Shown here piece by piece: positions 9,517 through 27,974 of a stretch of DNA of 64,000 bases (position 1 is the stretch's first letter; each line of letters opens with the position of its first letter). The stretch lies in NCBI GenBank assembly GCA_965237465.1, contig OZ250138.1, positions 1,340,110 through 1,404,109 of the forward strand, given 5' to 3'. Source of the DNA: Dehalococcoidia bacterium. Lineage in GTDB: Bacteria > Chloroflexota > Dehalococcoidia > UBA6926. The notes under the pieces are model-generated. The model had not been told where the DNA came from and did not search any database. It saw only the letters and a list, made by a program, of their open reading frames with translations. The translations under genes were made by a program, and so were the position numbers.

Positions 9517-9529
9517 CCCTGCCGTCCCT

Positions 9530-9540
9530 CCCCCCCCCCC
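9530..9540. repeat. homopolymeric C11 tract 14 nt downstream of the MTase-Mrr stop codon
   Basis: ccctc + 10 C at 9526-9540 read directly from the sequence. Intergenic. Confidence 0.9.
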
Positions 9541-10641: not shown

Positions 10642-11039
10642 CCGGCCGCGGGGACTCTCCCTCGCAGAATCAGGAACCTGCGCCGAGCGGCATGAGCCGG
10701 CTCAGCAAGCTGGATTGTCGTATGGCCGACGTCCCGCCAATTGGGTCGTCGGCTAACCTCATCCCCGCACATTGGGACCACCGCTTGACGTGGCTCTTCT
10801 AGCTGAATCCGCCAGGGCCCCTCGCGTGCCGGATCGGCGAACTGCGCAGAAACGCCAAACCGGACTGTCGCAATTCGCGCAGTGGGGGACGCCTCCGCGC
10901 CTCTCCGCCCCAACGTGCTAAGATTCTTGCGCGCCGGCCTCAAAGAACGGCGGCGCCTGGACGTACTAACTGCCGCCTCAACATGATCCTCTCCCTTCGA
11001 AACCTGCCCGCCGGCGATCATGGCTCGTTGTGAAACTCA

Positions 11040-12002: not shown

Positions 12003-12008
12003 CTGGGC

Positions 12009-12788: not shown

Positions 12789-12793
12789 GCCAG

Positions 12794-13267: not shown

Positions 13268-13369
13268 AGAACTACGCTCCCCTAAACGGTTGCCCTGGCC
13301 CCGCGAATCGCATCGCCTCGCGCAGCTCGCGTCGAGAGGCGGCATATCCGCGGCGCCGCTATAGTAGCG

Positions 13370-14614
13370 GTGATGGTTGCCGCCACCCCATTAGCCGTTT
13401 CACGCGCCTCGGACCCATACCGGTTCGTCATTTATGCCCTCGTGGTATTGATGAACTTCACGCTGGGGCTCACGTTTCTTGCGCCGGCCTCCCTCTTGCC
13501 CTTGATCACGGATGAATACGGCCTGTCCCATTCGGGCGGCGCATTTGTTGTCACGAGCATCACTCTTGTATTCATGGCCGGCAGCCTTCCTGCCGCCATC
13601 ATAGTCTCACGGTGGAACATTCGCGCGGTCTACGGCATTGGCTGGGCGCTCATGGGCTGCGCTGTGCTGACTCCGTTCCTGGGCGGCTTCTGGGCCCTCA
13701 TCGGCATCCGCTGCGTTCAGGGGCTCGGCGCGTCCGCTCTGACACCGCTGACCGCCGCCATCATCATGCGATGGGCGCCGGCGCGGGAGGTGCCGATCGT
13801 CAACGCCTTAGCCCTTGCCACGTTGACGGTCGGCCTTGGCGCGTCCCTTTACATAGGACCGATTCTCGCAGGCAGGGTTGGCTGGGAGTGGGCCATCGGC
13901 ATTGAGGGACTTATTGCCATTGTCGGGGCTGCCCTCTGGTTCGTCCTCTGGCGGAAACGGCGGGTGGAGGGAACAGTCGCGGCGGAACCCGTCACGATGA
14001 CCGCCATCGTCTCCGTACTTCGTCGCCGTGAGACGTGGCTCCTCGCGATTGCCGTCATCGGCCCCTGGGCTCAATTCAACACGCTCAGCACCTTCCTGCC
14101 GACGTACTTTCAAGAGGTGCGAGGACTCAGCCTGCAGTCGGCGGGAAGCCTGGCGGCGATCTTCGCCTTCGCCGGCATACCCGCCAATATCCTCGGCGGC
14201 TTCATTGCGACAATCACGGGGCGCAGACGGCCCATACTGATTTGGTCGGGCTTATTCATCGGCGCGGCAGGCATGGCGATCCTATACGCGCCAGTCGGAA
14301 TCATCCTCTTAATCGCGGTCGTAACGGCCGGTTTCCTTCAGTGGGTGTATGAGCCGACGTTATTCACTGTGCCGATTGAACTACGGGGATCGTCTCCCGA
14401 GCGCGCCGGAGCCATTTGGGCGGCTATTCTCACGACCGGCAACGCATCCAGCTTCGTCGCCCCCGTCGTAGCCGGATACATCATTGATGGAACCGGCAGC
14501 TTCATCCTGGGCATCGGGAGCATCGCCGCGTTCTCATTCACAATGTTCTTTGCCGCCCTGTTGTTGCCGGAAACCGGGCCGGGCAGACTCAACGCCCCCA
14601 ACCCTGTCAACTAA
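13370..14614 (+). CDS. MFS transporter
   Basis: 414 aa, 12 predicted TM helices, typical MFS loop between TM2 and TM3. Confidence 0.8.
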   Translation: MMVAATPLAVSRASDPYRFVIYALVVLMNFTLGLTFLAPASLLPLITDEYGLSHSGGAFVVTSITLVFMAGSLPAAIIVSRWNIRAVYGIGWALMGCAVLTPFLGGFWALIGIRCVQGLGASALTPLTAAIIMRWAPAREVPIVNALALATLTVGLGASLYIGPILAGRVGWEWAIGIEGLIAIVGAALWFVLWRKRRVEGTVAAEPVTMTAIVSVLRRRETWLLAIAVIGPWAQFNTLSTFLPTYFQEVRGLSLQSAGSLAAIFAFAGIPANILGGFIATITGRRRPILIWSGLFIGAAGMAILYAPVGIILLIAVVTAGFLQWVYEPTLFTVPIELRGSSPERAGAIWAAILTTGNASSFVAPVVAGYIIDGTGSFILGIGSIAAFSFTMFFAALLLPETGPGRLNAPNPVN

Positions 14615-14689
14615 GCCAACCCTGGCTGGAGTGCTACACTACAGAACGATCACCCTGCCTATAGCTGAAACCCTTATGGAGTTCATTGC

Positions 14690-15361
14690 ATGACGTCATC
14701 GTCATCATCGCGTTCGGCGCTGCTCGGCCCTACGCCTGCGGCGCGACGCTACTTCCAACAGTTCCTGGGAGAACGCGCGGAGCTTTCCGAGGCCGAGGCT
14801 CGCATCGTCAACGCCATAGAGCCGCAGGGGCCCGAAGAGCTTCTTCAGGCCGGCGTCGCCGTGTATGACGCCATTTCGGCCGGCGACGCGCCGCTCCCCG
14901 CCTCGGATGCCGTGTCAGCCTTGCCCGATGACCTTGACGCCGCCGGCCTTCGAACCGCGCTCTATGTGATCATGGTCAACGCAGTCGCCATTGAGCTGGC
15001 CATAGACACGCCCGCCACCGTGCGCGCCGAGCAGGGACTGGCCATTGAGGGCGGCGTGCTGCCCCGGTTGGCGCATGATCACCTTGTCCTTGTGGCGCGG
15101 TTCTCATTGGACACAATCCAGTCTCCCAAGCCGCCTGATACGTTTCAGGGCCTGATAGATCTGACCGTGGAGCGTCTATCCTCGCTCGTGGAGTTGGCGT
15201 CTCAAGCGATGATGGGAGCGGACGTCGATCCATTCGAGACGTTCGAGCACCGCGACTGCGAGAAGTGCGGCCATTTGCTCCAGCTGCACGTCGGCTTTGA
15301 GAGCTGGGAAGACGTTCAGGCTGAGCACGACGCATGGTGCCCAAAACGCCGTGAGGCTTAG
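14690..15361 (+). CDS. hypothetical protein with C-terminal Cys/His cluster
   Basis: 223 aa, no recognised family. C-terminus HRDCEKCGHLLQLH...HDAWCP could bind metal. Confidence 0.5.
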   Translation: MTSSSSSRSALLGPTPAARRYFQQFLGERAELSEAEARIVNAIEPQGPEELLQAGVAVYDAISAGDAPLPASDAVSALPDDLDAAGLRTALYVIMVNAVAIELAIDTPATVRAEQGLAIEGGVLPRLAHDHLVLVARFSLDTIQSPKPPDTFQGLIDLTVERLSSLVELASQAMMGADVDPFETFEHRDCEKCGHLLQLHVGFESWEDVQAEHDAWCPKRREA

Positions 15362-15415
15362 GCGCCCGCCTGCCCGAAATATGCCGTCGCTGTTTCTTCA
15401 GGACCGGAATCTGCG

Positions 15416-15859
15416 GTGACAATGTCAGAGTCCGCCGCCGTTCGAGTGACGGCCCTGATCCTTGGTCAGGACTCCTTTCGTGATGAGCGCGGCCGCGCCC
15501 ACGTCATCGGCATCTTTGATACTGTCGGCGCGCAGCAGTTCCCTATGGCGTTCCAGTTCTCCATATATTGCCGCCTGCACGGCGAGGGCACGCATCAGCT
15601 GATCCTGCGCGTTCTTGACCCGCAAGGCATGGAAATAGTCCACAGCGAGCCGATCACAGCCAACCTGCTGCCGATTCAAGGCCACCAGTTCTTCATGAGC
15701 ATCGGAATCCAGGCGGAATCGGACGGCCTCTTTCTCGTGCAGGCCGTTGTCGATGGCCAGGTTGAACAAGAGGCGCCTCTCCTCGTTGAGGCCGGACAAG
15801 ATGAGTGGCATCAGGGCAATGACGGCAGTCCGCTTGCCGGACCGCCTCCCGTCCCCTGA
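15416..15859 (+). CDS. hypothetical protein
   Basis: 147 aa, no recognised family. Co-directional with the upstream hypothetical gene and the downstream hyuA. Confidence 0.45.
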   Translation: MTMSESAAVRVTALILGQDSFRDERGRAHVIGIFDTVGAQQFPMAFQFSIYCRLHGEGTHQLILRVLDPQGMEIVHSEPITANLLPIQGHQFFMSIGIQAESDGLFLVQAVVDGQVEQEAPLLVEAGQDEWHQGNDGSPLAGPPPVP

Positions 15860-15874
15860 CCGCGCGGCGCGCCC

Positions 15875-17866
15875 ATGATCGGCGTCGACACAGGCGGCAC
15901 GTTTACTGACCTTATCCGCTACGGCGACGACGGCGTAATGCGGATGATCAAAATCCCCTCCACGCCCGCCGACCCGGCGCAATCCTTCCTTGAGGGGATT
16001 CGCGAGATCAGCGAGGAACTCGCCAACGAGGACATCGTTCACGGCTGCACCGTCGGAGTAAATGCCGTCCTTGAGCGGCGCGGGGCGCGGACAGCGCTCG
16101 TGACAACGGCGGGGTTCGCGGATGTCATTGAGATTGGCCGTCAAACCCGCCCTGCGCTCTACGACCTGCACGTTCGCCGGCCAACCCCCCTCGTGCCCCG
16201 GAACCTGAGATTCCAGGTTGATGAGCGCGTTTCCTCAGAGGGTGTCGTCCTGCGTGCGCCGAGCGAGACGGACATGGAAGCCATCGCCGATGAAATCGCC
16301 AGATCCGGCGCGGAATCGGTCGCTGTTGTCCTGCTCTTCTCATTCCTCAGGCCAGAACAGGAGGGCCGCGTTCTGGAAGCGCTCCGCCAAAGGCTGCCTA
16401 CAGAAACGCAGATCTCCGTCTCCAGCGAGATTCTTCCTGAGTTCCGCGAATACGAGCGAACGTCCACGACCGTAATGAACGCCTACATCGCGCCGGTCAT
16501 GCAAACCTATCTGGGCGCGATTGATGAATCCATTCCCAATCCGGTTCGCATCATGTCGTCCGCGGGCGGCAGCATGACAATCGGCCAGGCGCGACGGCTG
16601 CCCGTGCATACCCTATTAAGCGGGCCAGCCGGGGGCGTGGTCGGGGCTTTTGAGGTGGCGAGAGCGGCGGGCATTGACCGGATCATGACGCTAGACATGG
16701 GCGGCACGTCCACGGATGTGTCCTTGTGCGAAGGCGAGATTCAGCGCACTTCGGAGGGGGCAATCGGCGGACTCCCCGTTCGCGTCCCGATGGTTGACAT
16801 TCATACGGTAGGCGCCGGCGGCGGCTCGCTCGCGTCCTTCGACGCGGGCGGCGCGTTGGCCGTCGGGCCGCAATCCGCCGGGTCCATCCCCGGTCCGGCT
16901 GCGTATGGGCGGGGCGGCGGCGCAACAGTCACGGACGCCAACATTATCCTGGGCCGGCTTCCTGCAGACAGGCCGCTCGCCGGCCGCCTTCAGTTGGACG
17001 GAAACGCAGCCCGCGACGCCTTCCAATCCATAGGCGGGACGCAGGGCATGAGCGCGGAGGAGTTGGCCGACGGCGTGGTCCGGGTGGCCAACGCGAACAT
17101 GGAGCGCGCCCTGCGCGTCGTCTCGCTTGAACGGGGCCATGACCCGCGCGACTTCACGCTGGTCGCGTTTGGCGGGGCCGGGCCGCTGCATGCATGTGAG
17201 CTGGCCGATGGCCTGGGCATGAAGCGCGTGCTTGTCCCCCGTTTACCGGGAGTGCTCTCGGCATGGGGAATGCTTATGGCGGACGTTACTCGGGATTACG
17301 CTCGGACTGTGTTGTTGAACACCGAAGATTCTTCTCCCGACTCACTGTCTCAGCTGCTCGCCGAGATGGAGACCGGCGCGCGGCGCGACTTGCAGGCCAC
17401 AGACCTGCCGGATTCCAGCGCCGTCCTCACCGCGTGGGCGGACATTAGATACGTCGGTCAGGGCTATGAGCTCTCCATACCTCTCGTCGCGGCCGATGGA
17501 CTGTCATTGCCGGACCGTTTTCACGCCGCGCATCAACGTCGATTCGACCACAGCCACGCAGGCTGGCCGACAGAGATTGTCACTTTGCGGCTGCGCGTAA
17601 CTATCAGCGTCCCCAAGCCTGAGACGCGTGTGGAGTCCGACGATGGCCCCGACAGCTCACACGCGGTACTCGGCACGACCCGGATCATGTTGGATACGGG
17701 CGAGGCAACTGTGCCGGTAATCAACCGCGAGGCGCTCAGGCCGGGCAACACGATCAGTGGGCCAGCCGTCCTGACCCAAACGGACGCGACGACCTGGCTC
17801 CCGCCGGAGTGGGGCGCGCGCGTCGATGGCCGCCTGAACCTCATCCTGGAGAGGACAGGATCGTGA
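15875..17866 (+). CDS. hyuA: hydantoinase/oxoprolinase family protein, A subunit
   Basis: 663 aa. N-terminal MIGVDTGGTFTDLI (ASKHA fold) and the full hydantoinase_A architecture. Confidence 0.85.
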   Translation: MIGVDTGGTFTDLIRYGDDGVMRMIKIPSTPADPAQSFLEGIREISEELANEDIVHGCTVGVNAVLERRGARTALVTTAGFADVIEIGRQTRPALYDLHVRRPTPLVPRNLRFQVDERVSSEGVVLRAPSETDMEAIADEIARSGAESVAVVLLFSFLRPEQEGRVLEALRQRLPTETQISVSSEILPEFREYERTSTTVMNAYIAPVMQTYLGAIDESIPNPVRIMSSAGGSMTIGQARRLPVHTLLSGPAGGVVGAFEVARAAGIDRIMTLDMGGTSTDVSLCEGEIQRTSEGAIGGLPVRVPMVDIHTVGAGGGSLASFDAGGALAVGPQSAGSIPGPAAYGRGGGATVTDANIILGRLPADRPLAGRLQLDGNAARDAFQSIGGTQGMSAEELADGVVRVANANMERALRVVSLERGHDPRDFTLVAFGGAGPLHACELADGLGMKRVLVPRLPGVLSAWGMLMADVTRDYARTVLLNTEDSSPDSLSQLLAEMETGARRDLQATDLPDSSAVLTAWADIRYVGQGYELSIPLVAADGLSLPDRFHAAHQRRFDHSHAGWPTEIVTLRLRVTISVPKPETRVESDDGPDSSHAVLGTTRIMLDTGEATVPVINREALRPGNTISGPAVLTQTDATTWLPPEWGARVDGRLNLILERTGS

Positions 17867-19506
17867 ACATCGACGCCGTTTCGCTGGAAGTCTTTCGTAA
17901 CCTTTTCGCCTCAATCGCAGAGGAGATGGGCGTAGCGCTCGGCCGAACAGCGTGGTCGCCAAACATCAAAGAGCGTCGCGACTACTCATGCGCGATATTT
18001 GACGCCAGCGGCAGGCTCATCGCTCAGGCGGAACACATTCCGGTGCACCTCGGCGCCATGCCCGCGTCCGTGCAGGCCGCCATCGAACGCTTTGACTCCT
18101 TTGAGCCGGGCGACATCATCGCCTTGAATGACCCGTATCTGGGCGGCACCCACTTGCCGGACCTCACGCTGATCTCGCCAACATTCGCGCCGTCCGAGCC
18201 ACATGATGGAGGCTCGGACGCGCTGGCCGGATTCGTAGCGACGCGCGCGCACCATGCCGACGTGGGCGGCATGGCCCCCGGCTCCATGCCCTCCTCCACA
18301 ACCATCTACCAGGAGGGCTTTATCATTCCGCCGATACGCCTCTCCCGCGCAGGCGTCATGAATGAAGAGGTCATTGAGCTGTTCATGCGCAACGTGCGCA
18401 CACCGGAGGAGCGGCAGGGGGATCTAGCCGCCCAGATCGCCGCCAATCACGTCGGTGAGACGCGATTCACCCAACTGATTTCCCGATACGGCAGTGAGAC
18501 CGTCGATGGCCATGCGGACGCGCTGATCGCCTATGCGGAGAGAATAGTTCGACATGCTCTGCGAAGCATCCCCGCGGGCGCCTACACGTTCGCCGACACT
18601 ATGGAGCCGCCAACGCCGGACTCAGACCCGCCCCGCATCGCTGTCACCATTACCAGCGATGGCGAAGGTTCCTTGACGGTGGATTTCTCAGGCACGTCGC
18701 CGGAGCAGCCGTTGAGCAATATCAACGCCGTTCGAGCAGTGACGGTCTCCGCAGTGCAGTACTGCGTACGATGCCTTGCTGGTCCGCGCGCGCCCGCGAA
18801 TCACGGCTCATTCGCCTCCGTAAACGTCATCACGCCGGAGGGATCCCTCGTGAATCCCCGACCACCTCGCGCCGTCGCGGCCGGCAACGTCGAAACGTCG
18901 CAGCGCATCGTTGACGTGGTGCTGGGCGCGCTTGCACCCGTTCTTCCGGACATTATTCCCGCCGCAAGCCAGGGCACAATGAACAACGTGACCATCGGAG
19001 GGACGGACCCCCGCACTGGCCACCCATTCGCCTATTACGAGACCCTTGCCGGCGGCGTCGGGGCCGGTCCTAACGGATCGGGCGAGTCCGCCATTCATAG
19101 CCACATGACCAACACGATGAACACGCCGGTCGAGGCGCTCGAGTTTCAGTTCCCGTTTCGCGTTATTGAATACGGGATCCGCCGCGAATCAGGCGGCGCG
19201 GGGAGATTCCGGGGCGGCGACGGACTGATAAGGACAGTCGAGTTTCTCGCGGACGCAACTGTTTCTCTCCAGACGGAGCGCCGATCTCAAGGACCGTGGG
19301 GCCTCGCAGGGGGCGATGACGGCGCGCCCGGACGCAACTCATTGCGTACAATAGAATCGCAAACGTATGATTCGATTCCGGCGAGCACGACGCTCAATGT
19401 TGCCGCCGGGGACTCGCTTCGGATTGAGACGCCGGGCGGCGGCGGATGGGGGCAACCTCAATCACCGCCCACTGACGAGGAGGGAATCAACCGCAGCCAT
19501 GACTAG
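17863..19506 (+). CDS. hyuB: hydantoinase B/oxoprolinase family protein, B subunit
   Basis: GTG start at 17863 overlaps the hyuA TGA (GTGA). Translation VNIDAVSLEVFRNLFASIAEEMG... is typical of hydantoinase_B. Confidence 0.85.
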   Translation: MNIDAVSLEVFRNLFASIAEEMGVALGRTAWSPNIKERRDYSCAIFDASGRLIAQAEHIPVHLGAMPASVQAAIERFDSFEPGDIIALNDPYLGGTHLPDLTLISPTFAPSEPHDGGSDALAGFVATRAHHADVGGMAPGSMPSSTTIYQEGFIIPPIRLSRAGVMNEEVIELFMRNVRTPEERQGDLAAQIAANHVGETRFTQLISRYGSETVDGHADALIAYAERIVRHALRSIPAGAYTFADTMEPPTPDSDPPRIAVTITSDGEGSLTVDFSGTSPEQPLSNINAVRAVTVSAVQYCVRCLAGPRAPANHGSFASVNVITPEGSLVNPRPPRAVAAGNVETSQRIVDVVLGALAPVLPDIIPAASQGTMNNVTIGGTDPRTGHPFAYYETLAGGVGAGPNGSGESAIHSHMTNTMNTPVEALEFQFPFRVIEYGIRRESGGAGRFRGGDGLIRTVEFLADATVSLQTERRSQGPWGLAGGDDGAPGRNSLRTIESQTYDSIPASTTLNVAAGDSLRIETPGGGGWGQPQSPPTDEEGINRSHD

Positions 19507-20095
19507 GAATCCACTCTTCCGCATCCTCTCGGGCGGCATCCTGTTGCTGTCGTTGGTGTTTGTCGCCATTGCATGCTCAACGGCGCCTGAGGAGGAGTCT
19601 GTCGAAACGTCGCCCGAGACGCCAACCGATGCACCCGCAGGGCCGACGGTCGGCGGCAGCGTCGGCGACCTCGCGCCGGACTTCTCGCTCTCTGCGACTG
19701 ACGGCCGTATGGCTTCGCTGACTGAATTCAAGCAAGCCAACCAGCCCGTTGTCGTGTATTTCTTCGCAACCTGGTGACCAACCTGTCGGTCCGAGTTGCG
19801 GGCCCTCAAGGAAATCTACCCCCAGTATTCTGATCAGGTCGCGTTTATCGGCGTCGACGTTGATCCCTCTGAGAGCGCTGAAAAGATCAGCGCATACGCA
19901 AGCGATCAGGGATACCCCTGGCCCATGGCTGAGTATGATCCCGACATCCTGGTGGACTATGGCATCCGATCCCAGGCCTCAAAAGTGATGATCGGCGGCG
20001 ACGGCGTGATCACATTCCGCGCCACGTCCAGCAAGACTCGTGACGACAAGTGGCACGAGGTGTTCCAGGAGGTCATCGCGCAATCTGCCGGATAG
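19499..20095 (+). CDS. candidate selenoprotein: TlpA/ResA-like thioredoxin-fold lipoprotein with U-P-T-C redox motif (in-frame TGA at 19775-19777)
   Basis: ATG 19499 (GAGGAGGG 15 nt upstream) overlaps the hyuB stop. Signal peptide MTRNPLFRILSGGILLLSLVFVAIAC. Codons around the TGA read VVVYFFATW-TGA-PTCRSELRALKE, the position where thioredoxin-like proteins carry WCPxC. The same frame continues 106 codons to TAG 20093-20095 (...GYPWPMAEYDP...VMIGGDGVITF...). Confidence 0.65.
19788..19804 (+). promoter_or_regulatory. candidate SECIS-like hairpin (GGUCCG-AGUUG-CGGGCC), starting 11 nt after UGA 19775
   Basis: 6-bp stem (one G-U pair) with a 5-nt loop. Position relative to the UGA matches bacterial SECIS placement. 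Also present in the paralog with a compensatory change. Confidence 0.4.
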
Positions 20096-20126
20096 TGGCG
20101 TAGGGAATCTCAAACATGACGCCCCA

Positions 20127-20151
20127 GTCATTCCGGCTCTCGCCGGAATCC
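20127..20151 (+). repeat. REP-like palindromic element copy (gtcATTCCGGCtctcGCCGGAATcc)
   Basis: 8-bp stem ATTCCGGC/GCCGGAAT. Same family as the copies at 21225, 47854, 52117 and 52200. Confidence 0.7.
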
Positions 20152-20230
20152 AGTGCTTCGGCTGCGGGCAGATTCCGCCTAGGCCCCTTGGCGGCAACGG
20201 CCAGCAGCATTCAAATGTAATGGACTCCTT

Positions 20231-21163
20231 TTGCATACAGAAAATCGCGAAATGACAAGCGCACAAATGTCCTCCGTCCTGCGCTCTTTCATGCGATGGC
20301 GGCGTCCGGGGATCATCACAGTTGCGCTCATTATCGTGGCCATCGCCGCGGCAGCAGCAGGATGCACGACCGCCGTGCAGACTTCGCCGGACGACAGCGG
20401 CCGGACGACGCTTGCGCCCACGTCCCAGGTTCAGATCACCACCTTGCCCGCCCCGGTAACAGGAGAGCAGGAGCCCGGAGACTCCGCCGCCTCGCCGACG
20501 GTCTCTCCAATGACCCCAACGCCCCCGACCGGGCAACGCTCAACCGCGGTCGCACCGGAACCGGCGGCCACCGATTCAAGCGGCGCCGGGAGTGCGGAGC
20601 CGACGGAGACGCCGGCGCTCCCAACGGCCACGCCCGCAAACGTCCCTGTGGAACCGTCCCCAACGAGCATCCCCCCGCCGCCGACAGCAACAACTGCCCC
20701 ACCCACCTCCACGCCAATTCCACTGCCGACAGGTCATCGCGTCGGCAACAGCGCCCCTGATTTCACGGTGGAAACCGTTGATGGCGTGACCGTCTCTCTA
20801 ACTGACTACAAGCAGGCCAACCAGCCCGTCGTTGTCTACTTCTTCGCAACCTGGTGACCAACGTGCCGGTCCGAGTTGCGGACCCTCAAGGACGTCTATC
20901 CCGACTACGCCGATCGCGTCGAGTTCATCGGCGTGGGCACGGATTTTGGGGAATCCGCAGCCGACGTGCGACGCTTTTCCAATGCGGAAGGCTACCCGTG
21001 GGACATGGCGCCGTGGGAATCATCCATCGTCGCCGACTATCGAATACTGAGTCAGTCATCCAAGGTAGCCATTAACGGCGACGGCGTCATCACATACCGC
21101 AGCGGATACGGCAGTCTCTCCTCCCGTGACTGGCGCAACATCTTCGAGGACCTGCTCGACTAG
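20231..21163 (+). CDS. candidate selenoprotein paralog: TlpA-like thioredoxin-fold lipoprotein with U-P-T-C motif (in-frame TGA at 20855-20857); start uncertain
   Basis: Signal peptide ...ITVALIIVAIAAAAAGC. Long Pro/Thr/Ala-rich linker, then HRVGNSAPDFTVETVDGVTVSLTDYKQANQPVVVYFFATW-TGA-PTCRSELRTLKD... continuing in frame to TAG 21161-21163. 5' end could be ATG 20231, 20252, 20267 or 20291. Confidence 0.6.
20868..20884 (+). promoter_or_regulatory. candidate SECIS-like hairpin (GGUCCG-AGUUG-CGGACC), starting 11 nt after UGA 20855
   Basis: Same stem-loop as at 19788, but the G-U pair is replaced by a U-A pair (G to A in the 3' arm). Confidence 0.4.
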
Positions 21164-21224
21164 GAAAACCCGAACCGCCGCGTCGGCAGGGGCGAAAACG
21201 CCCAACCTCGTCCGCTACGCCACC

Positions 21225-21249
21225 GTCATTTCGGCGAAAGCCGGAATCC
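21225..21249 (+). repeat. REP-like palindromic element copy (cgtcATTTCGGCgaaaGCCGGAATcc)
   Basis: Stem with one U-G wobble and a GAAA tetraloop. Lies in the intergenic space between the selenoprotein 2 stop and the stop of the giant helicase gene. Confidence 0.7.
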
Positions 21250-21281
21250 AGCCGGGCGCCGGCGCACTCATTCCCCCGACA

Positions 21282-24200
21282 CTACTCATTCGGCTCGAAC
21301 ACCAGCTCCGGGATCACGACTTCCCAAGAATCGCACTGTAGGCGGTCCCGGTACTCAGGCTCCGAACGCTCACGGTCCCAGCCAGCGATGGCGAAGACCG
21401 TGGCATACGAGCAGCGCATGCCAGACGGCGGCTCGAAACCACCGGCAAGCTGTCCCACCACCGTCCCGTTGCGATCCAAGAGCTCCCACCGACTTGACCT
21501 GAGCCGCAAATCCAGCAGATCGCCCGGCGAGAGCGAGGCAATGGCGTGATGAACCGGATGGCCTGAGGCTTGGTATCCCGCATAGCTCAGAAAGACGTCG
21601 CTCAGGCTGAGTCGCCGATAACGGCGAGCGAGTTCCGGCGCAGGCGGCGGAAGGTTGAGGGGCTCCCGGCGCAGCACCGATGGCGCCGCCCGCAAGGCGC
21701 CCTGGAGCGGGTGCGCCCGTGCAAAGCTCGCGAGGGCTAAAGTCTGCCGCGCACGGGTCATGGCCACGTAGTACAGTCGGCGCGGGGCATCCGCATCCCC
21801 GTCGTCGCCAATGCGATCCCAGGCTCCGTCCAGCACAATCACGTGGTCGAACTCCAGGCCCTTGGCGCGATGGGCGGTGAGCAGCAGCAGCCCGCGTTGG
21901 CGGCGCCGTACTTCCCGCGCCCACTCGGCCAGCCATTCAATGCACGCATCAACCGGTGTTTCGGCGCCTCCGGTTTCCATCGCGTACTCGGTTATCGCTT
22001 CTTGAAGCAGTTCAATCCAGGGGCCTGGAGATTGGTTGCCCACCCAGTCATTCAGATCCCCGCTCTTCACCAGGAGGGAATCCCGCCCACGCAGCCAGTT
22101 CACAAGAGCCCTGGTCTCACGCAAATGCCAGATGCCGGTGAAATCCTCGTTTGCCATCTGCACGGGGATACCCTCAAGTTCGCAGAGGCTGCGCACCGCA
22201 TCCAGATAGCTCCATTCACGCGCCACCACCGCGCAGGCGGACCACTCCCAGTCAGGAGCGAGGCCGGACAATCGCTTCAATTCTGCGACGACCACCTGTG
22301 CTTGGGAGATGGGAGTGTCGCCCGTCTGTAGTATTTGGACCTGGCCACGAGCCACCGGGTCTATGGTGGTCCACGCGCCGCCGGGCGGGTCCTTCGTTCG
22401 ACTCTGGTTTACGCCGATGGGATGCCCGGCCTTCATTCGGCCCCGAGCCGGTTCAATCACAGCATTGGCCGCCTTGATGATGTGCCCTGTGGAGCGATAG
22501 TTGTCTGTCAGGAAGGCGGGCTTTGCGCCATAATCCTCTTCGAAGCGCTGGATAAACGCCGGTGACGAGCCATTGAAGGCGTAGATGTTCTGGTCATCGT
22601 CGCCGACGGCCAGCAGACCGAGCTTGTCGTCCGGATCGGAAAGCGTTCTGCCTGCCAAGGCGGAAATCAGCTCATATTGATCCGGGCCAATGTCCTGGTA
22701 CTCGTCCACCAGAATCCATCGGAACCCCGACAACAGTCGTTCTCGATACTCGTCCGCTTCATCGGGCGGCAATCCTTCTCCTCGCAACATAGCCGTCGCC
22801 TCCTGAAGCAACTTCTGGAAATCCGTGTCCTCCGGACGATTGGCAGGCCCCGTGAAACTGGCGCCCACCAGCCGCATGGCGAGGGCGTGACAGGTGAGCA
22901 CGATCACTCCGCGGGCGTCGTCGCCTATCAGCTCTGCGAGGCGGCGGCGAATCTCGACTGCGGCATGCCGGTTGTAGGCAAGGGCCACGATGGAGCGGGG
23001 ATTCTCTCGCTTGACCCGTATCAGATAGGCGATGCGATGCACCAACACCCGCGTCTTGCCTGACCCGGGACCGGCCAGCGCCAGCACGTTCGTCTGTTCC
23101 CGGTCGTCCGTCACAATGCGGCGCTGGTCAGGATTGTTCAGGCTTTCGACGATCGTTCGCCACGATTCCGGCGTGGTCTGCCGCGATGTCTCCCTCTCTC
23201 GATCCGGCAGCCAGCGGCGCAGAAAGTCTTCTCGACGACTGCTGAAATAGTCCACGATCAGGCGTAGGGCATCGGCCATGGCCTGAAGCCCCCGCCGTAC
23301 GAACTCCGCCATCACGTGGATCTGCAGCACCTGTTCGTCGTAATGGAGCTTGAGGGATGCAAAGTCGGTCTGGGCAAATCCGCGCCTCTCCGGCTTCAAG
23401 CGGATGGTCATAGCCGGGCGGAAAACTGCCAGGCCCTTGTTCAGCCGAATGACCTCTTGCTCATGCAGCCAGAGCAGGGCGCGATCCATCAGCTTGGCGG
23501 GAGCCCTGTCGGTGCTCCCCAGCAACATGTCAGACTTGATCGCCTCCAGCAGCTTGCCCAGCGTCGTCTCTGCCAGCAGGTCCGTGCCCCGACTCCCCTG
23601 AGGCAGGCATGTGAGTAGGTGCTGCAACAGCCGCCCGGCTCCTGCGCGCCGCAGCTCGGCGGTCTTCTCAAGGTCTCCCCACTCCCGCCGTAATGTGACG
23701 TAGATCGTGTCCGCATCACGCCCCCGAACGCTGAGGCTTCCCCCGTCGCCCCCATCGCCGCGCCCGTCAGCGGCAATGCTGCGGATGATGCGCCTTACGC
23801 GTTCCGGCAGCGCGTAAGAATAACCTTCGTCCTTGAGTCGTTGAGTGGCGAGGCGGAGATGCAGCGGGTAGGATTCGCCCTTGCTCATATCGGGGGCCAT
23901 CTCGCGCATGAGGGAAATCAGGCCTTGCTCCAGCGCCGCCGCCTCATCGAGTCGTCTCCGGGAGGAGTGTTCCATCCTCCCTGTATGGACAAAAGCGGTC
24001 AACACCGTATCGTTGCTGGCGATGCCTAGTCGCTCCAGGTCGTAGAGCGCGGCCCGCACTCCCTCTGAGTTCAGGCCCGACACGGTCATCAACTCGTCAG
24101 TGGTGATTCCTTCGTCCGCATTCGCCTCGATGAGCGTCTCGGAAATGGTCGCCAGCTGGCGGCGATAGGCATGGGCGATTTCGACCTTTCCAAGCTTGAC

Positions 24201-26369
24201 GCGGGCTTCTTCCTTTGAGTTCACCCGCAAGGAGGACGGGAACACCTGCACCTGGTTCTCTTCTCGGGTCAGCAGCTCGGCCTGTTCCAGCCAGGACACT
24301 GCCGTGCGAACCCGGTTGTCATCGGTTGCGGAATCTCGCACGAATGCGTTGTCGTCGTCCTCTCCAAGGATCTCGCCGGCGGTGGCGACTACTTCGCCGT
24401 CCAGGCGCCCCTTTCGATCAAAATTCCGCAGCGCCCTGAGCACTCCGTGGATTTCCCGTCGCGTGAGACGGGAACGCGCCGACATGCCGAACTGCCGCTC
24501 CACGTCGTCCGGCGTGTAGAGCAGCACACAGCGGGCCGCCTGTTGATCACGTCCGGCACGGCCCGCTTCCTGAAGGTAGTTCTCCAAAGAACCGGGGATG
24601 TCGGCGTGAATAACCACCCGTACGTCCGGTTTGTCTATGCCCATGCCAAAGGCGTTGGTGGCGACTATTGCCCGCAGATCGCCGCGGATGAAGCTCTGTT
24701 GGACATCCTTTTTGGTCTCCGACGGCAGTCCCGCGTGGAAGTAGTTCGCCTGCATCCCTTTTGCCTGCAAGAACGCCGATATCTCTTCGGCCTGCCGCCG
24801 CGTCGCGCAATAGACGATGGCGCCGCCCGGTTCATCCCTCGGCAGATCGGCCTCCAGGATCTGGTGGATATGAGCCAGCTTTTCTTCGTTGCTGGTCTGC
24901 GCCACAACAAATTCTAGGTTGGCGCGTTGGGCGCCGCCGTTGAAGACCTTCAGTTGGATGCCCAACTCTTTCCGGAAGTAGTCCACGATCTCCGTCTCCA
25001 CGTCCGGCTTGGCGGTCGCGGTCAGACACAATACGGGAGGCGGCGGTTCCGTTCCCGACCTCTCACGGATGAAGCGCCCCACGTAACGGTAATCTGGCCG
25101 AAAGTCATGTCCCCACCGTGAGAGGCAATGAGCCTCGTCCAGCACCCAGCCGCCAATCTCCCGTTGCGCCAGAACACGACGCACGGACACGCTACGGAGT
25201 TGCTCCGGAGAGATGATAAGGATGCCGGCATCACCCAGCCGCACCCGATCCAGGGCATCGGCCCGTTCCGGCATGGACAGTAGCCCGTTGATGGTGACGC
25301 AGGAATCGATTCCGCCTGCCTTGAGCCCCTCCACCTGGTCAGCCATGAGGGCAACCAGAGGCGAGATCACAACGGTCAGCGCGCCGGTCTTGTCGTATCG
25401 GGAAAGGGCCGGCAGCTGGTAGCAAAGCGATTTTCCAGCGCCGGTGGGCAGGATTGCCAGGACGTGCTCTTTGCCCAACGCCGCTTCGACGACGGACTGC
25501 TGCATAGGCTGCCCGGCATCTTCGTCCTCCGGCTCAGGCCGGAAGCTGTCAAAGCCGAACCAGCGGGCGAGCTCCTTGCGGGCATCGTGCTGTTCCCGAC
25601 ACCAGTCGCAAGCGCGATCAACGCAGGCTGTATCGCGCAAACGGCGGATCAACCGCCCTGCCTCGGGAAACTGATGCCGAACCCAGGGAGGCAAGACCGA
25701 ATTGCCCCCGGACACCGACAGCCACGCCAAGGCGTATGCAAGCGCCCACCCGTACTTGCCTACATCCTCCATGACCTCGCGCGTGTGCGTCTGGCAGGCG
25801 TTTCCGGTCAGACGTCTGCGAATCGCATCATGCGCGTCCGCGTCGGATGGCTTTGGCGCACCTCGTATTGACGTGAATATCTGGTCGAATCCTGCGCCAT
25901 CATCCGCGCTGGTCAGCCAATGCCAGGCCATCAACAGGTCCGCTTCACCATCGCTCAGCGCCCTTTGCTGATTCTCGAATACCTCGAGCGTCAGTCTCGC
26001 ATCCAGTTCCGGATCGTTAATGCGCCCACGTTTAAGTTGTCCGTCCTGGTAATGCTTCACCAGGTGGTGATAGGGGTTGCGGGGGAAGGCCAGGGGATTA
26101 AGTCTAAGCGTGTCCACTGCCGGCAGCCGCAGTAACCGCAAGCTGGGATTTGCGGCTTGAAGGTGGGGCACATCGAAATCTACCAGATTGTGGCCCAGCA
26201 GAAAGTCCGCTCCATCGGCAAGGGCGTCCAGATCGACCAAAGCCTGGTCAAGGCTGCTGCCTGTTCGGGGGAACGTCAGGGACTGATCAGTATCCGGGCG
26301 CACTCCCGCGAATGCGTGGATGCGGCTGTCCCGGACCCCGACTTCCAGATCCACCGACAGGGGCCGCAA
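21282..26369 (-). CDS. giant multidomain protein: DEDDh 3'-5' exonuclease + RecQ-family SF2 helicase + UvrD/PcrA-family SF1 helicase
   Basis: 1695-aa uninterrupted ORF (TTG start at 26369; no ATG/GTG further upstream in frame). Residues 1-150: DnaQ-like exonuclease motifs (SVDLEVGV, GHNLVDFDVPHL). Residues ~290-640: RecQ motifs (ILPTGAGKS, VLDEAHCLSRWGHDFRPDY, VLCLTATA, IVATNAFGMGIDKPDVRVVIH, QEAGRAGRD). Residues ~1090-1695: UvrD motifs (ALAGPGSGKT, ILVDEYQD, VGDDDQNIYAFNGS, DNYRSTGHI, LLTAHRAKGLEFDHVIVL, YVAMTRARQ). Confidence 0.85.
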   Translation of the reverse strand: MRPLSVDLEVGVRDSRIHAFAGVRPDTDQSLTFPRTGSSLDQALVDLDALADGADFLLGHNLVDFDVPHLQAANPSLRLLRLPAVDTLRLNPLAFPRNPYHHLVKHYQDGQLKRGRINDPELDARLTLEVFENQQRALSDGEADLLMAWHWLTSADDGAGFDQIFTSIRGAPKPSDADAHDAIRRRLTGNACQTHTREVMEDVGKYGWALAYALAWLSVSGGNSVLPPWVRHQFPEAGRLIRRLRDTACVDRACDWCREQHDARKELARWFGFDSFRPEPEDEDAGQPMQQSVVEAALGKEHVLAILPTGAGKSLCYQLPALSRYDKTGALTVVISPLVALMADQVEGLKAGGIDSCVTINGLLSMPERADALDRVRLGDAGILIISPEQLRSVSVRRVLAQREIGGWVLDEAHCLSRWGHDFRPDYRYVGRFIRERSGTEPPPPVLCLTATAKPDVETEIVDYFRKELGIQLKVFNGGAQRANLEFVVAQTSNEEKLAHIHQILEADLPRDEPGGAIVYCATRRQAEEISAFLQAKGMQANYFHAGLPSETKKDVQQSFIRGDLRAIVATNAFGMGIDKPDVRVVIHADIPGSLENYLQEAGRAGRDQQAARCVLLYTPDDVERQFGMSARSRLTRREIHGVLRALRNFDRKGRLDGEVVATAGEILGEDDDNAFVRDSATDDNRVRTAVSWLEQAELLTREENQVQVFPSSLRVNSKEEARVKLGKVEIAHAYRRQLATISETLIEANADEGITTDELMTVSGLNSEGVRAALYDLERLGIASNDTVLTAFVHTGRMEHSSRRRLDEAAALEQGLISLMREMAPDMSKGESYPLHLRLATQRLKDEGYSYALPERVRRIIRSIAADGRGDGGDGGSLSVRGRDADTIYVTLRREWGDLEKTAELRRAGAGRLLQHLLTCLPQGSRGTDLLAETTLGKLLEAIKSDMLLGSTDRAPAKLMDRALLWLHEQEVIRLNKGLAVFRPAMTIRLKPERRGFAQTDFASLKLHYDEQVLQIHVMAEFVRRGLQAMADALRLIVDYFSSRREDFLRRWLPDRERETSRQTTPESWRTIVESLNNPDQRRIVTDDREQTNVLALAGPGSGKTRVLVHRIAYLIRVKRENPRSIVALAYNRHAAVEIRRRLAELIGDDARGVIVLTCHALAMRLVGASFTGPANRPEDTDFQKLLQEATAMLRGEGLPPDEADEYRERLLSGFRWILVDEYQDIGPDQYELISALAGRTLSDPDDKLGLLAVGDDDQNIYAFNGSSPAFIQRFEEDYGAKPAFLTDNYRSTGHIIKAANAVIEPARGRMKAGHPIGVNQSRTKDPPGGAWTTIDPVARGQVQILQTGDTPISQAQVVVAELKRLSGLAPDWEWSACAVVAREWSYLDAVRSLCELEGIPVQMANEDFTGIWHLRETRALVNWLRGRDSLLVKSGDLNDWVGNQSPGPWIELLQEAITEYAMETGGAETPVDACIEWLAEWAREVRRRQRGLLLLTAHRAKGLEFDHVIVLDGAWDRIGDDGDADAPRRLYYVAMTRARQTLALASFARAHPLQGALRAAPSVLRREPLNLPPPAPELARRYRRLSLSDVFLSYAGYQASGHPVHHAIASLSPGDLLDLRLRSSRWELLDRNGTVVGQLAGGFEPPSGMRCSYATVFAIAGWDRERSEPEYRDRLQCDSWEVVIPELVFEPNE

Positions 26370-26996: not shown

Positions 26997-27974
26997 CTAG
27001 TCAGACGCAATCGCGCAGATCACATGGACGCTAAGCCGCCACGAATCGGTTACTGCGCCGACTTCCTTGGCCACCCCTGTCCATGAGGGAGACTTCTCTC
27101 CCGTCAGCCCGCTTGGATACGAGGCCACGATCGCTACGCCCGCAGGAATCTCGGCATCGGCAGAACCGATCGCTCCCAAGACTCGCGCGCCGCCGCCCGT
27201 CGCAACCTTGCCTCCGGCGCATCGGACAGTCATGGCCTTGTCGGTGCTGTTCGCTGCCGTGACCTGTACCACGATCTCAGACCCGCTTATGCCTGGAGGT
27301 CCCTGTTGCCCTTGAGGACCATGAGGCCCTGCCTCGCCCTTCGGGCCTGCAACACCACGCTGGCCTGCAGATCCGGGAGCCCCTTCAGGTCCCCTGGGGC
27401 CTGGAGGTCCTACATTACCCGCCGGTCCTACCGGCCCTACTTGCCCTTGAGGCCCCAGCGGTCCTGGCGGGCCCTGTGGTCCAGTTTCACCCTGCAGACC
27501 CTGCGGTCCTTGAGGACCTGTGTCGCCCTTTTGTCCGGAGTCCCCGATCTGTCCCTGCGAACCAACCGGACCCTGCGGACCTACTGGCCCTGGAGGTCCA
27601 CCGGGATCGCCCTTGGCTCCATCCTGGCCAGGCGTTCCGATATCGCCCTTCTCACCCTGAGGCCCCTGAGGTCCCTGGGCTCCCTGGGGACCCTGTAGTC
27701 CCTGTAATCCCTGGATTCCCTGTGGCCCTCCCGGGTCACCTTGGTTTCCCTTGTCTCCATTGTCACCTTGCGATCCCTGTGGTCCTGCGGAGCCTGCCGG
27801 ACCTGCCGGTCCTATTGGCCCCTGAGAACCTGCAGGGCCAATGGCGCCGGCGGGACCCTGGGAGCCTTGGTCCCCTTGAGGACCGGCATCGCCTGCGCAA
27901 CCAACAGCCACAAGTGTGACTCCTATCAAAATCGATATGACGCCGAGTCGCTTCCATCCGAAACCGACGGTCAT
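26997..27974 (-). CDS. collagen-like triple-helix repeat (GXY) lipoprotein with C-terminal globular domain
   Basis: Signal peptide with Cys ([14 protein letters not shown]). Then about 70 uninterrupted Gly-X-Y triplets rich in Pro/Gln ([31 protein letters not shown]...). Then a ~100-aa non-repetitive C-terminal domain. Confidence 0.8.

What the first reader, a model, noticed from the sequence alone, without database searches (positions are those of the whole stretch)
21282..26369. 1695-aa single ORF fusing DEDDh exonuclease, RecQ helicase and UvrD helicase modules
The three modules are in tandem in one uninterrupted frame. Exo-RecQ alone recalls the eukaryotic WRN architecture. Appending a complete SF1 UvrD/PcrA helicase (including motifs VI and the C-terminal 2B region) to a complete SF2 RecQ helicase in one polypeptide is something I cannot place in any characterised repair or defence protein. 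A ~450-aa linker (residues ~640-1090) has no recognisable domain. The gene is flanked by a REP-like copy and a strong terminator. It sits in an accessory-looking neighbourhood (selenoprotein tandem, collagen-like gene). It could be a novel repair machine or a standalone nuclease-helicase defence protein.
Basis: partly seen in the sequence, partly recalled or inferred. Interest (0 to 1): 0.7.

Follow-up and report, generated by a model that had tools for sequence, protein, structure and literature searches.

The report
Exonuclease–RecQ–UvrD triple-fusion helicase gene
A real 1,695-residue gene joins an exonuclease-like domain, a RecQ-type motor, four DNA-binding winged-helix domains and a UvrD-type motor in one protein; the family is widespread and horizontally spread, but I found no study of it.

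Summary
The ORF (21282..26369, minus strand) is real and uninterrupted. It is not an assembly chimera. Hundreds of full-length homologues of about 1,600-1,900 aa share the architecture, in at least ten phyla, on plasmids and, very abundantly, in gut Bacteroidales. Databases call them only "RecQ family ATP-dependent DNA helicase".

Both motor cores keep all catalytic motifs. The N-terminus is a confident DnaQ/DinG-type exonuclease fold with the four acidic residues. Its catalytic His is an invariant Asn, so it is not a canonical DEDDh, and it is not WRN-like. The "450-aa linker" is a conserved, well-folded array of about four winged-helix domains. Four invariant cysteines suggest a metal site.

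No partner gene is conserved. Identity between phyla is 60-80%, although the gene diverges about as fast as, or slightly faster than, its neighbours within lineages. That points to horizontal transfer. Outside sponge symbionts the gene often lies beside restriction-modification, Wadjet, CRISPR or toxin-antitoxin genes. In sponge symbionts and in this window it does not.

My best reading is a standalone two-motor nuclease-helicase acting on foreign or branched DNA. An accessory fork-repair role is nearly as likely. I found no characterised equivalent.

The parts
21282..26369 (-). Whole gene, 1695 codons plus stop (TAG at 21282-21284); TTG start at 26367-26369
   Evidence: Full-length homologues at 60-80% identity in 80 loci, and more distant ones at 31-43%.
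25950..26369 (-). Residues 1-140: DnaQ/DinG-type 3'-5' exonuclease fold. Acidic tetrad D7, E9, D66, D123, with invariant N118 where DEDDh enzymes have His. Invariant loop P99-Y100-H101..K105-H106-Y107.
25575..25949 (-). Residues 141-265: conserved Trp-rich helical domain with four invariant cysteines (C192, C249-x4-C254-x2-C257) and a nearly invariant H261. Putative Zn or Fe-S site just before RecQ motif 0.
24495..25574 (-). Residues 266-625: RecQ-type SF2 motor (two RecA lobes). Motif 0, Walker A PTGAGKS 308-314, DEAH 411-414, SRWGHDFRPDY, TATA, QEAGRAGRD. No RQC zinc subdomain and no HRDC.
   Evidence: the alignment to E. coli RecQ stops at its residue 345. Conservation.
23160..24494 (-).
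21705..23159 (-). Residues 1071-1555: UvrD/PcrA/Rep-type SF1A motor. Q motif, Walker A GPGSGKT 1100-1106, DEYQD 1222-1226, GDDDQNIY, NYRS, a ~190-residue insertion at the 2B position, motifs V and VI (VAMTRAR).
   Evidence: Conservation.
21285..21704 (-). Residues 1556-1695: C-terminal domain of unknown fold. It is the least conserved part (44% mean column identity) but is under purifying selection in most pairs.
   Evidence: no PDB or Pfam match.
21225..21249 (-). REP-like palindromic 25-mer, 33 nt downstream of the stop codon. It is a genome-wide repeat and not specific to this gene.
   Evidence: copies at 47855, 52117 and 52212; 0 expected by chance.

Best explanation
The gene encodes a standalone, horizontally mobile, single-chain nuclease-helicase.

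Shown. It contains two catalytically intact ATP motors of different superfamilies: a RecQ-type SF2 motor and a UvrD-type SF1A motor. An array of four winged-helix domains joins them. A DnaQ/DinG-type exonuclease-fold domain with an intact metal-binding tetrad, plus a four-cysteine metal site, sits at the N-terminus. A domain of unknown fold sits at the C-terminus. No partner gene is conserved.

Inferred mechanism. The winged-helix spine holds duplex DNA. The two motors, both 3'->5' by family, each take a single strand of a branched or end-containing substrate such as a fork, a bubble or a free end. Because the strands are antiparallel, the motors would either pull the two arms through the protein or unwind in both directions. 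A freed 3' end would be fed to the exonuclease-like domain. That domain either degrades the end, using a base other than the missing His, or merely captures it.

Inferred role. The protein attacks or disables incoming plasmid or phage DNA, or its replication intermediates, as a one-gene defence. This is comparable in logic to RecBCD/AddAB and to nuclease-helicase defence proteins. The biochemical picture is much better supported than the biological role.
For: Architecture and motif integrity.

Standalone: no neighbour of 80 aa or more is conserved across 81 loci, and no conserved small ORF lies next to the gene.

Accessory and mobile:
- The family is patchy: 215 of 185,579 GTDB species in the close-relative scan.
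- It is present on 27 plasmid records.
- An identical 'MULTISPECIES' protein occurs across Bacteroidales on hundreds of contigs.
- Identity between phyla is 60-80%, yet within syntenic lineages the gene diverges about as fast as, or slightly faster than, its neighbours (dS within the flanking genes' range, dN toward the upper end of theirs). So the cross-phylum similarity reflects transfer and not extreme constraint.
- L015 and L016 share the gene at 91% identity but none of their flanks.
- dS is mosaic along the gene, for example 0.94 in one segment against 0.06 in another within a single pair.

Defence-type company outside the sponge clade:
- Type III R-M plus MksE/DUF3584 (Wadjet-like) immediately downstream in Bacteroidales.
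- Type I R-M and an integrase on Allochromatium pALVIN01.
- SNF2/DUF1156/DUF499 plus HEPN-MNT plus a transposase in Sterolibacteriaceae.
- WYL and Cas6 on the Thiothrix plasmid.
- A methylase plus helicase plus transposase on Nostoc pNPUN02.
- Toxin-antitoxin genes nearby in four more contexts.

The RecQ module scores at least as well against PADLOC DpdF and PsyrT models as against RecQ itself, and the UvrD module matches GajB. There is no LexA box upstream.
Against: In this window and across the sponge-symbiont clade the neighbours are mostly metabolic. Of 120 immediate neighbours only a handful are defence-like, and four are Ogt, a DNA-repair protein. Telluria, Glaciimonas and the B. finegoldii plasmid show no canonical defence system or toxin-antitoxin pair nearby (Telluria has only a lone PIN-domain gene). 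Within lineages the gene sits stably in a syntenic locus. Its base composition matches the host. No full-length model exists in PADLOC 2.0. No homologue was found in 50,697 phage records, which is neutral. The only nuclease-like domain lacks the canonical general base, so DNA destruction is unproven. No experiment exists. The defence-context tally (5 of 12 with canonical systems) has no background control.
Confidence: 0.42

Rival explanations
1. It is an accessory genome-maintenance enzyme. The combined RecQ, UvrD and exonuclease activities would process stalled or damaged replication forks, gaps or bulky adducts in the host's own DNA. This resembles RecQ with RecJ, UvrD, WRN, or the Bacillus MrfA helicase with the MrfB DEDDh exonuclease. 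The gene would be acquired horizontally and then kept because it improves survival in DNA-damaging niches.
For: All six regions are under purifying selection, with omega 0.14-0.33 overall. Loci are stable and syntenic, and divergence matches the neighbours within lineages. Base composition is host-like. Neighbours in this window and in the sponge clade are housekeeping or metabolic, with Ogt next to the gene in 4 of 120 cases. Both parent families are classical repair helicases. The closest structural relative of the N-terminus is the exonuclease of the repair helicase DinG.
Against: The distribution is patchy and crosses phyla, with plasmid carriage and the same protein spread across many Bacteroidales species. 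Several lineages have adjacent R-M, Wadjet, CRISPR or toxin-antitoxin genes. Upstream regions show no consistent LexA box: only 3 scattered matches, and none in Telluria, Massilia or Methylococcus. The RecQ module lacks the RQC and HRDC domains used by repair RecQs for substrate choice.
Confidence: 0.35
2. The protein serves mobile elements and not the host. It could be a replication, conjugative-processing or anti-defence helicase-nuclease carried by plasmids and integrative elements. It might, for example, protect or process the element's own DNA ends or counteract host nucleases.
For: It is found on 27 plasmid records, 13 of them conjugative or mobilizable. On the B. finegoldii plasmid, SSB and ParA genes lie a few kb downstream. 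An identical protein is shared across Bacteroidales species. Integrase or transposase genes lie nearby in several loci.
Against: Most copies are chromosomal, with no mobile-element genes within 10 kb, and are inherited with their flanks. None occurs in phage genomes. Relaxase, T4SS and replication-initiator genes are not consistent neighbours.
Confidence: 0.1
3. It is an artefact: an assembly chimera, or a read-through of two or three adjacent genes after a sequencing error.
For: On Nostoc pNPUN02 a distant relative is annotated as three consecutive genes (RecQ family, UvrD-helicase domain, '3'-5' exonuclease') separated by 24 and 36 nt. So the parts can exist as separate ORFs or decay into them.
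Against: The same continuous architecture and length (about 1,600-1,900 aa) is seen in hundreds of independent assemblies. These include closed chromosomes and plasmids of cultured strains such as Telluria, Thiothrix, Allochromatium, Cereibacter and Methylococcus. The junction regions are as conserved as the motors.
Confidence: 0.01

Closest known systems
Staphylococcus aureus / Bacillus-type DinG (N-terminal DnaQ-like exonuclease fused to a helicase)
   Different: DinG's helicase is XPD/Rad3-type, not RecQ-type. DinG has a single motor and no winged-helix array, and its exonuclease keeps the catalytic His that is Asn here.
Bacterial RecQ (E. coli RecQ) and the RecQ family
   Same: The SF2 core has all RecQ motifs, including motif 0 and the aromatic-rich loop region. 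It passes NCBIfam recQ_fam, and E. coli RecQ structures match at E=1e-65.
   Different: The zinc-binding subdomain after lobe 2 and the HRDC domain are absent (the alignment ends at RecQ residue 345). It falls far below the RecQ equivalog cut-off (340 against 640 bits). It carries three further catalytic or binding modules.
UvrD / PcrA / Rep (SF1A helicases) and Gabija GajB
   Same: It has a complete SF1A core with an insertion at the 2B position, and partial PADLOC matches to GajB.
   Different: It scores far below the UvrD, PcrA and Rep equivalog cut-offs (about 165-170 against 911-1144 bits). It has a different C-terminal domain. There is no GajA-type partner gene.
Human WRN (exonuclease plus RecQ helicase)
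   Same: The domain order is the same, a 3'-5' exonuclease fold N-terminal to a RecQ core. The WRN helicase core matches at E=2e-51.
Two-motor helicase-nucleases RecBCD, AddAB and AdnAB
   Same: Two helicase motors and a nuclease work as one machine on DNA ends. This is the closest match in logic for how the protein might work.
   Different: Those enzymes are multi-subunit, use SF1 motors only (of opposite polarity in RecBCD) and use RecB-family PD-(D/E)XK nucleases. Here there is one chain, one SF2 and one SF1A motor of the same nominal polarity, and a DnaQ-fold domain.
RecQ-like defence helicases (DpdF of the Dpd system; PsyrT/RqlH of PsyrTA/RqlHI)
   Same: The RecQ-type core scores 382 bits against a PADLOC DpdF model and 304 bits against PsyrT.
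   Different: The matches cover only the motor core. NCBIfam DpdF gives 216 bits against a cut-off of 550. No dpd genes and no PsyrA/RqlI partner lie nearby.

Membership tests
RecQ family helicases | SF2 DEAH core with RecQ motifs 0-VI | tested here: met
   TIGR00614 recQ_fam 304 bits against a cut-off of 219.8; E. coli RecQ E=1e-65; motifs conserved in 87 homologues.
RecQ family helicases | RecQ-C-terminal region with a Zn-binding subdomain directly after lobe 2 | tested here: not met
   The alignment to RecQ structures ends at E. coli residue 345. There are no cysteines in residues 626-700. The first winged-helix domain could be a diverged RQC winged helix, but this cannot be shown.
RecQ family helicases | HRDC domain | tested here: not met
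Bacterial RecQ orthologue (equivalog) | Score above the TIGR01389 / PRK11057 cut-offs | tested here: not met
   340 against 640 bits, and 262 against 1015 bits.
UvrD/PcrA/Rep SF1A helicases | SF1A core motifs Q, I, Ia, II-VI | tested here: met
   Pfam UvrD-helicase 138 bits, AAA_19, UvrD_C, UvrD_C_2; UvrD E=6e-39; motifs conserved.
UvrD/PcrA/Rep SF1A helicases | Orthology to UvrD, PcrA or Rep (equivalog cut-offs) | tested here: not met
   164-170 bits against cut-offs of 911-1144.
DEDDh (DnaQ-like) 3'-5' exonucleases | RNase H-like DnaQ fold | tested here: met
DEDDh (DnaQ-like) 3'-5' exonucleases | Four invariant acidic metal ligands (Exo I D-x-E, Exo II D, Exo III D) | tested here: met
   D7, E9, D66 and D123 are invariant in 39, 4 and 87-sequence alignments.
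DEDDh (DnaQ-like) 3'-5' exonucleases | Catalytic His five residues before the last Asp (H-x4-D) | tested here: not met
   An invariant Asn118 occupies that position and aligns with the His of S. aureus DinG.
DEDDh (DnaQ-like) 3'-5' exonucleases | 3'-5' exonuclease activity | not testable with these tools
   Needs biochemistry. Invariant H101, K105, H106 and Y107 in a nearby low-confidence loop could substitute for the His.
WRN-type exonuclease-RecQ proteins | RNase D-like DEDDy exonuclease plus RQC plus HRDC | tested here: not met
Dpd system (DpdF) | DpdF equivalog score and dpd gene cluster | tested here: not met
   NF041063 216 bits against 550. No dpd neighbours in the window or in 80 loci.
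Gabija (GajB) | UvrD-like GajB encoded next to an OLD-family GajA | tested here: not met
   Only partial GajB matches to the SF1 module. No GajA-like gene in the window. AAA_15/DUF2813 neighbours occur in only 2 of 120 cases.
PsyrTA / RqlHI | RecQ-like toxin with an adjacent PsyrA/RqlI partner | tested here: not met
   The PsyrT model matches the motor core only (positions 23-377 of 689). No conserved neighbour, large or small.
RecBCD/AddAB/AdnAB helicase-nucleases | RecB-family PD-(D/E)XK nuclease domain and a multi-subunit complex | tested here: not met
   No such Pfam domain. AddA and RecB models match only the SF1 core at 41-72 bits against cut-offs of 696-860. It is a single gene.
Anti-phage/anti-plasmid defence genes in general | Enrichment next to known defence systems | tested here: inconclusive
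   Canonical defence systems lie within 10 kb in 5 of 12 non-sponge contexts, and toxin-antitoxin genes in 4 more. Few occur among 120 sponge-clade neighbours and none in this window. No background control was run.

The most novel reading that the evidence does not exclude
The family is a previously unrecognised one-gene immune system against phages or plasmids. It would combine an SF2 and an SF1 motor with a non-canonical DnaQ-fold nuclease and a winged-helix DNA-sensing spine. It spreads between phyla and is among the commoner accessory genes of gut Bacteroidales and of marine-sponge symbionts.
Probability: 0.35. Interest if true: 0.8.

Novelty: new variant of a known kind. Interest (0 to 1): 0.62.

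Why it matters
Single chains that carry two helicase motors from different superfamilies are, to my knowledge, rare. How two motors with the same 3'->5' polarity cooperate on one substrate is a mechanistic question that this protein makes directly testable. The family is large, is exchanged across at least ten phyla, and is very abundant in human-gut Bacteroidales, yet it carries only a generic 'RecQ family' label. Anyone relying on that label would assume it is the housekeeping RecQ, and it is not. If it is a defence protein, it adds a new one-gene system. If it is a repair enzyme, it is a bacterial counterpart of WRN-like nuclease-helicases that arose independently. The invariant His-to-Asn change in an otherwise intact DEDD site, and the four invariant cysteines, are specific and testable biochemical puzzles.

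Tried and rejected
1. Assembly chimera or hidden frameshift: rejected. The architecture recurs in hundreds of independent assemblies, including closed genomes.
2. A conserved partner gene or small adjacent ORF such as an antitoxin or sensor: none found. The one apparent 37-locus cluster of small upstream ORFs was the gene's own N-terminus.
3. SOS regulation: no consistent LexA box of either common type upstream.
4. WRN homology: rejected in favour of a DnaQ/DinG-type exonuclease.
5. 'Unusually slow evolution' as the cause of 60-80% identity between phyla: rejected. Within syntenic pairs the gene's dS lies within its neighbours' range and its dN is at or slightly above theirs, and omega is an ordinary 0.14-0.33.
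6. A sponge-specific gene: rejected. Close relatives occur in soil Oxalobacteraceae, Methylococcus, Competibacter and Syntrophales, and on plasmids of many Proteobacteria.
7. Sequence searches for the middle region and the C-terminal tail against PDB and Pfam gave nothing.
8. Technical dead ends:
- The afdb50 fold library was unavailable.
- Exact-sequence look-ups of the window protein and of P0134 found nothing.
9. Literature: ARMADA II is unrelated. A Desulfonema 'RecQ with only the ATPase domain' that is 78% similar to a mussel-symbiont protein (PMC6390638) may belong to this family, but I did not verify it.
Full report
**1. The observation**

The window holds one uninterrupted reading frame of 1695 codons at 21282..26369 on the minus strand. 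It starts at a TTG only six codons before the first conserved catalytic residue. There is no other start codon upstream in frame. GC content across the gene (0.61-0.65) is the same as in the flanks.

Pfam finds DEAD and Helicase_C at residues 288-608. It finds UvrD-helicase, AAA_19, UvrD_C and UvrD_C_2 at residues 1079-1548, and nothing in residues 1-250 or 640-1075. NCBIfam puts the first motor in the RecQ family: TIGR00614 scores 304 bits against a cut-off of 219.8. The protein is far below the cut-offs for the RecQ, UvrD, PcrA or Rep orthologue models. Against solved structures, residues 272-623 match E. coli RecQ (E=1e-65), then BLM, RECQ5, RECQ1 and WRN. Residues 1074-1312 match UvrD, UvrD1, PcrA and Rep.

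**2. It is not a chimera, and it belongs to a large family**

The first protein search returned 120 full-length proteins of 1642-1739 aa at 74-79% identity. A scan of one genome per GTDB species found 215 species with a relative. The best 80 loci cover essentially all 1695 residues at 60-80% identity. Their hosts are:
- Chloroflexota (Dehalococcoidia, Caldilineaceae)
- Poribacteria
- Latescibacterota
- Acidobacteriota
- Gemmatimonadota
- Acidimicrobiia
- Alpha- and Gammaproteobacteria
- Candidatus Synechococcus spongiarum
- Telluria and Massilia

Most of these are taxa that I know as marine-sponge symbionts (my own knowledge). The window's closest relatives are Dehalococcoidia MAGs at 79-80%.

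The family is not confined to sponges. Searching from the Telluria protein found Massilia, Noviherbaspirillum, Glaciimonas, Actimicrobium, Methylococcus capsulatus, Competibacter, Sterolibacteriaceae and Syntrophales.

The middle region alone finds 27 plasmid records. These are Thiothrix (67% identity), Cereibacter, Rhizobium, Microvirga, Paracoccus, Croceicoccus and Sulfitobacter (about 50%), Allochromatium (36%), Bacteroides and Phocaeicola (24%), and Nostoc (22%). No phage record matches.

A 1624-aa Bacteroidales version (31% identity, same architecture) is extremely abundant. It forms clusters of up to 5362 member sequences, and one 'MULTISPECIES' protein is seen on hundreds of contigs.

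A profile of the middle region, searched against 1.84 billion cluster representatives, finds 1177 proteins. The full-length ones are about 1,670-1,910 aa and carry that region at about residues 600-1170. So the middle region occurs only in this architecture. Every source that names the protein calls it a RecQ family or RecQ helicase, or simply a helicase.

**3. Anatomy**

Conservation is high along the whole chain, including the supposed linker.

(a) Residues 1-140. D7, E9, H60-N61, D66, D86-T87-L88, a P99-Y-H-x-L-V-K-H-Y107 loop, N118 and D123 are invariant or nearly so. This holds even in Allochromatium and Bacteroides. A profile hits only the S. aureus DinG exonuclease in the PDB (E=0.0018). 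In that alignment N118 lies opposite DinG's catalytic His, and D123 lies opposite the last Asp.

The domain is therefore a DnaQ/epsilon-type exonuclease fold with an intact two-metal site. It lacks the canonical general base. Whether it cuts DNA is unknown.

(b) Residues 141-265 form a Trp-rich helical domain. It has four invariant cysteines (C192, C249, C254, C257) and a nearly invariant H261. These are conserved across the whole superfamily. One distant cysteine plus a tight cluster of three is compatible with a structural zinc site or an Fe-S cluster. I could not tell which.

(c) Residues 266-625 are the RecQ motor, with motifs 0 to VI. The alignment to RecQ ends before the zinc subdomain, and no HRDC domain is found.

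(e) Residues 1071-1555 are a complete SF1A motor, with an insertion of about 190 residues at the 2B position.

(f) Residues 1556-1695 match nothing in PDB or Pfam.

**4. Context and evolution**

No neighbouring gene is conserved across the 81 loci. Synteny exists only within lineages. No small ORF accompanies the gene. The ten flanking ORFs scanned with Pfam include hydantoinase/oxoprolinase subunits, a thioredoxin-fold candidate selenoprotein, a collagen-repeat protein, solute-binding proteins and a BNR-repeat protein (three had no Pfam match); none shows a defence or mobile-element domain.

Among 120 immediate neighbours in the sponge-dominated loci, the commonest families are metabolic. A few are defence-like (HsdM twice, OLD-like AAA_15/DUF2813 twice, MNT twice), and four are Ogt.

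Outside that clade the picture differs.
- Canonical defence systems lie within 10 kb in 5 of 12 contexts examined. These are type III R-M plus MksE/DUF3584 in Bacteroidales, type I R-M plus an integrase on pALVIN01, SNF2/DUF1156/DUF499 plus HEPN-MNT plus a transposase, WYL and Cas6, and a methylase plus helicase plus transposase.
- Four further contexts have only toxin-antitoxin genes.
- Three contexts have none.

No control for background frequency was run, so this tally is only suggestive.

Selection is purifying in every region, with omega 0.14-0.33 overall. In syntenic species pairs the gene's dS (0.19-0.34) lies within the range of its flanking genes (0.12-0.99), while its dN (0.037-0.052) sits toward the upper end of theirs (mostly 0.005-0.08). 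The gene is therefore not unusually slow-evolving. The 60-80% identity between phyla is best explained by horizontal transfer, followed by retention within lineages.

Three further observations support transfer.
- The protein tree is not congruent with the species tree: Poribacteria are 75% identical to Chloroflexota, a Caldilineaceae copy is nearest to Alphaproteobacteria, and a cyanobacterial copy is nearest to Acidobacteria.
- L015 and L016 share the gene at 91% identity but not their flanks.
- dS is strongly mosaic along the gene within single pairs, which suggests recombination between alleles.

No consistent LexA box lies upstream.

**5. How it most likely works**

Shown: two intact motors, a winged-helix array between them, an exonuclease-fold domain with metal ligands, and no partner gene.

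From family knowledge, RecQ and UvrD/PcrA/Rep both move 3'->5' on single-stranded DNA. The two motors therefore cannot form a RecBCD-like bipolar pair on one DNA end.

I infer that each motor engages a different strand of a branched or melted substrate while the winged-helix spine holds duplex DNA. On antiparallel strands, two 3'->5' motors move in opposite directions. This would either enlarge a bubble in both directions or reel in two arms of a fork. A liberated 3' end could then be handed to the N-terminal domain, for degradation or for capture.

For the biological role I favour action on foreign DNA (confidence about 0.4). The reasons are the accessory, mobile, plasmid-borne distribution and the defence-type neighbours in several lineages. 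An accessory fork- or lesion-processing enzyme is nearly as likely (about 0.35). That reading is the better fit for this window's own surroundings. A function that serves mobile elements themselves is a minor third option.

**6. Comparison with known systems**

The closest structural relative of the N-terminus is the exonuclease-helicase DinG. The closest sequence relatives of the motors are RecQ and UvrD. The closest analogues in logic are WRN (an independent fusion with a different exonuclease clade) and the two-motor helicase-nucleases RecBCD, AddAB and AdnAB (different nuclease, multi-subunit).

The protein passes the RecQ-family test on the motor core alone. It fails the tests for RecQ orthologue, UvrD, PcrA or Rep orthologue, canonical DEDDh, WRN-type, DpdF, GajB, PsyrT and RecB-type membership. 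PADLOC 2.0 has no full-length model. Six full-text searches found no paper on this architecture. One paper describes a Desulfonema 'RecQ' with only the ATPase domain that is 78% similar to a protein of a mussel symbiont (PMC6390638). It may be a member of this family, but I did not verify that.

**7. Verdict**

Three corrections apply: an Asn replaces the catalytic His, a winged-helix array replaces the 'linker', and no terminator is found on the gene's strand.

The copy in this window is an ordinary member of a large family that already sits in the databases under a generic name, so the gene itself is not a discovery. The family, however, appears to be functionally uncharacterised. It has an unusual two-superfamily motor design, spreads across phyla, and is very abundant in gut and sponge microbiomes. 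I rate it a new variant of a known kind (nuclease-helicase DNA-processing enzymes), with interest 0.62.

Noticed in passing
window 20231-21163 (+): A thioredoxin-fold (AhpC/TSA or TlpA-like) ORF is interrupted by one in-frame TGA at 20855-20857, inside the redox motif ...YFFATW-TGA-PTCRSE... This gives a U-x-x-C in place of C-x-x-C, and the frame continues for 100 more codons. It is a candidate selenocysteine protein, convergent with the helicase gene. No SECIS element was searched for.
   Followed up: partly
window 21225-21249, 47855-47879, 52117-52141, 52212-52236: A palindromic REP-like 25-mer (GGATTCCGGCTTTCGCCGGAATGAC and variants) occurs four times in the window, with none expected by chance. 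One copy lies 33 nt after the helicase stop codon.
   Followed up: partly
window 26997-27974 (-): A 325-aa protein upstream of the helicase gene has collagen triple-helix repeats (Pfam Collagen, E=9e-34, four stretches). It is separated from the helicase gene by a 627-nt non-coding gap.
   Followed up: no
L032 vs L036, L015 vs L016, L013 vs L042, L021 vs L054 (helicase gene): Synonymous divergence is strongly mosaic along the gene within single species pairs. In L032/L036, dS is 0.94 in the exonuclease segment against 0.06-0.07 in the RecQ and winged-helix segments. This suggests recombination between alleles from different lineages.
   Followed up: partly
L082 (Nostoc punctiforme pNPUN02) 7171-12189: A distant relative is annotated as three consecutive genes: RecQ family 1021 aa, UvrD-helicase domain 373 aa, and '3'-5' exonuclease' 256 aa. 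They are separated by 24 and 36 nt and lie next to an ISNCY transposase. This is either a decaying copy or a naturally split version.
   Followed up: no
L086 (Bacteroidales metagenome contig) 10001-24875: The 1624-aa Bacteroidales version is followed directly by a type III restriction-modification set (N6_N4_Mtase, EcoP15I C-terminal domain, ResIII plus endonuclease) and by MksE and DUF3584 genes (Wadjet-like). The same arrangement was seen in 23 further contigs.
   Followed up: partly
L092 (Syntrophales) 11519-12052: About 3.5 kb from that organism's copy of the helicase gene lies an AhpC/TSA gene split into 101-aa and 74-aa products. This is reminiscent of the TGA-interrupted thioredoxin-fold gene beside the helicase gene in this window. 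It is probably coincidence.
   Followed up: no
window 15875-19506 (+); L087 7397-9866: An oxoprolinase/hydantoinase gene pair (HyuA/HyuB type) lies near the helicase gene in this window. In Methylococcus, genes with CT_C_D, CT_A_B and LamB_YcsF domains (by my own knowledge the PxpBCA-type 5-oxoprolinase) lie directly upstream of the homologue. The two enzyme families are unrelated but have a similar function. This is likely chance.
   Followed up: no
L004 4611-5963 (+): A second, roughly 450-aa ORF about 4 kb upstream of the full-length gene clustered with the family in the all-against-all BLAST. It could be an extra helicase paralogue or a gene fragment.
   Followed up: no
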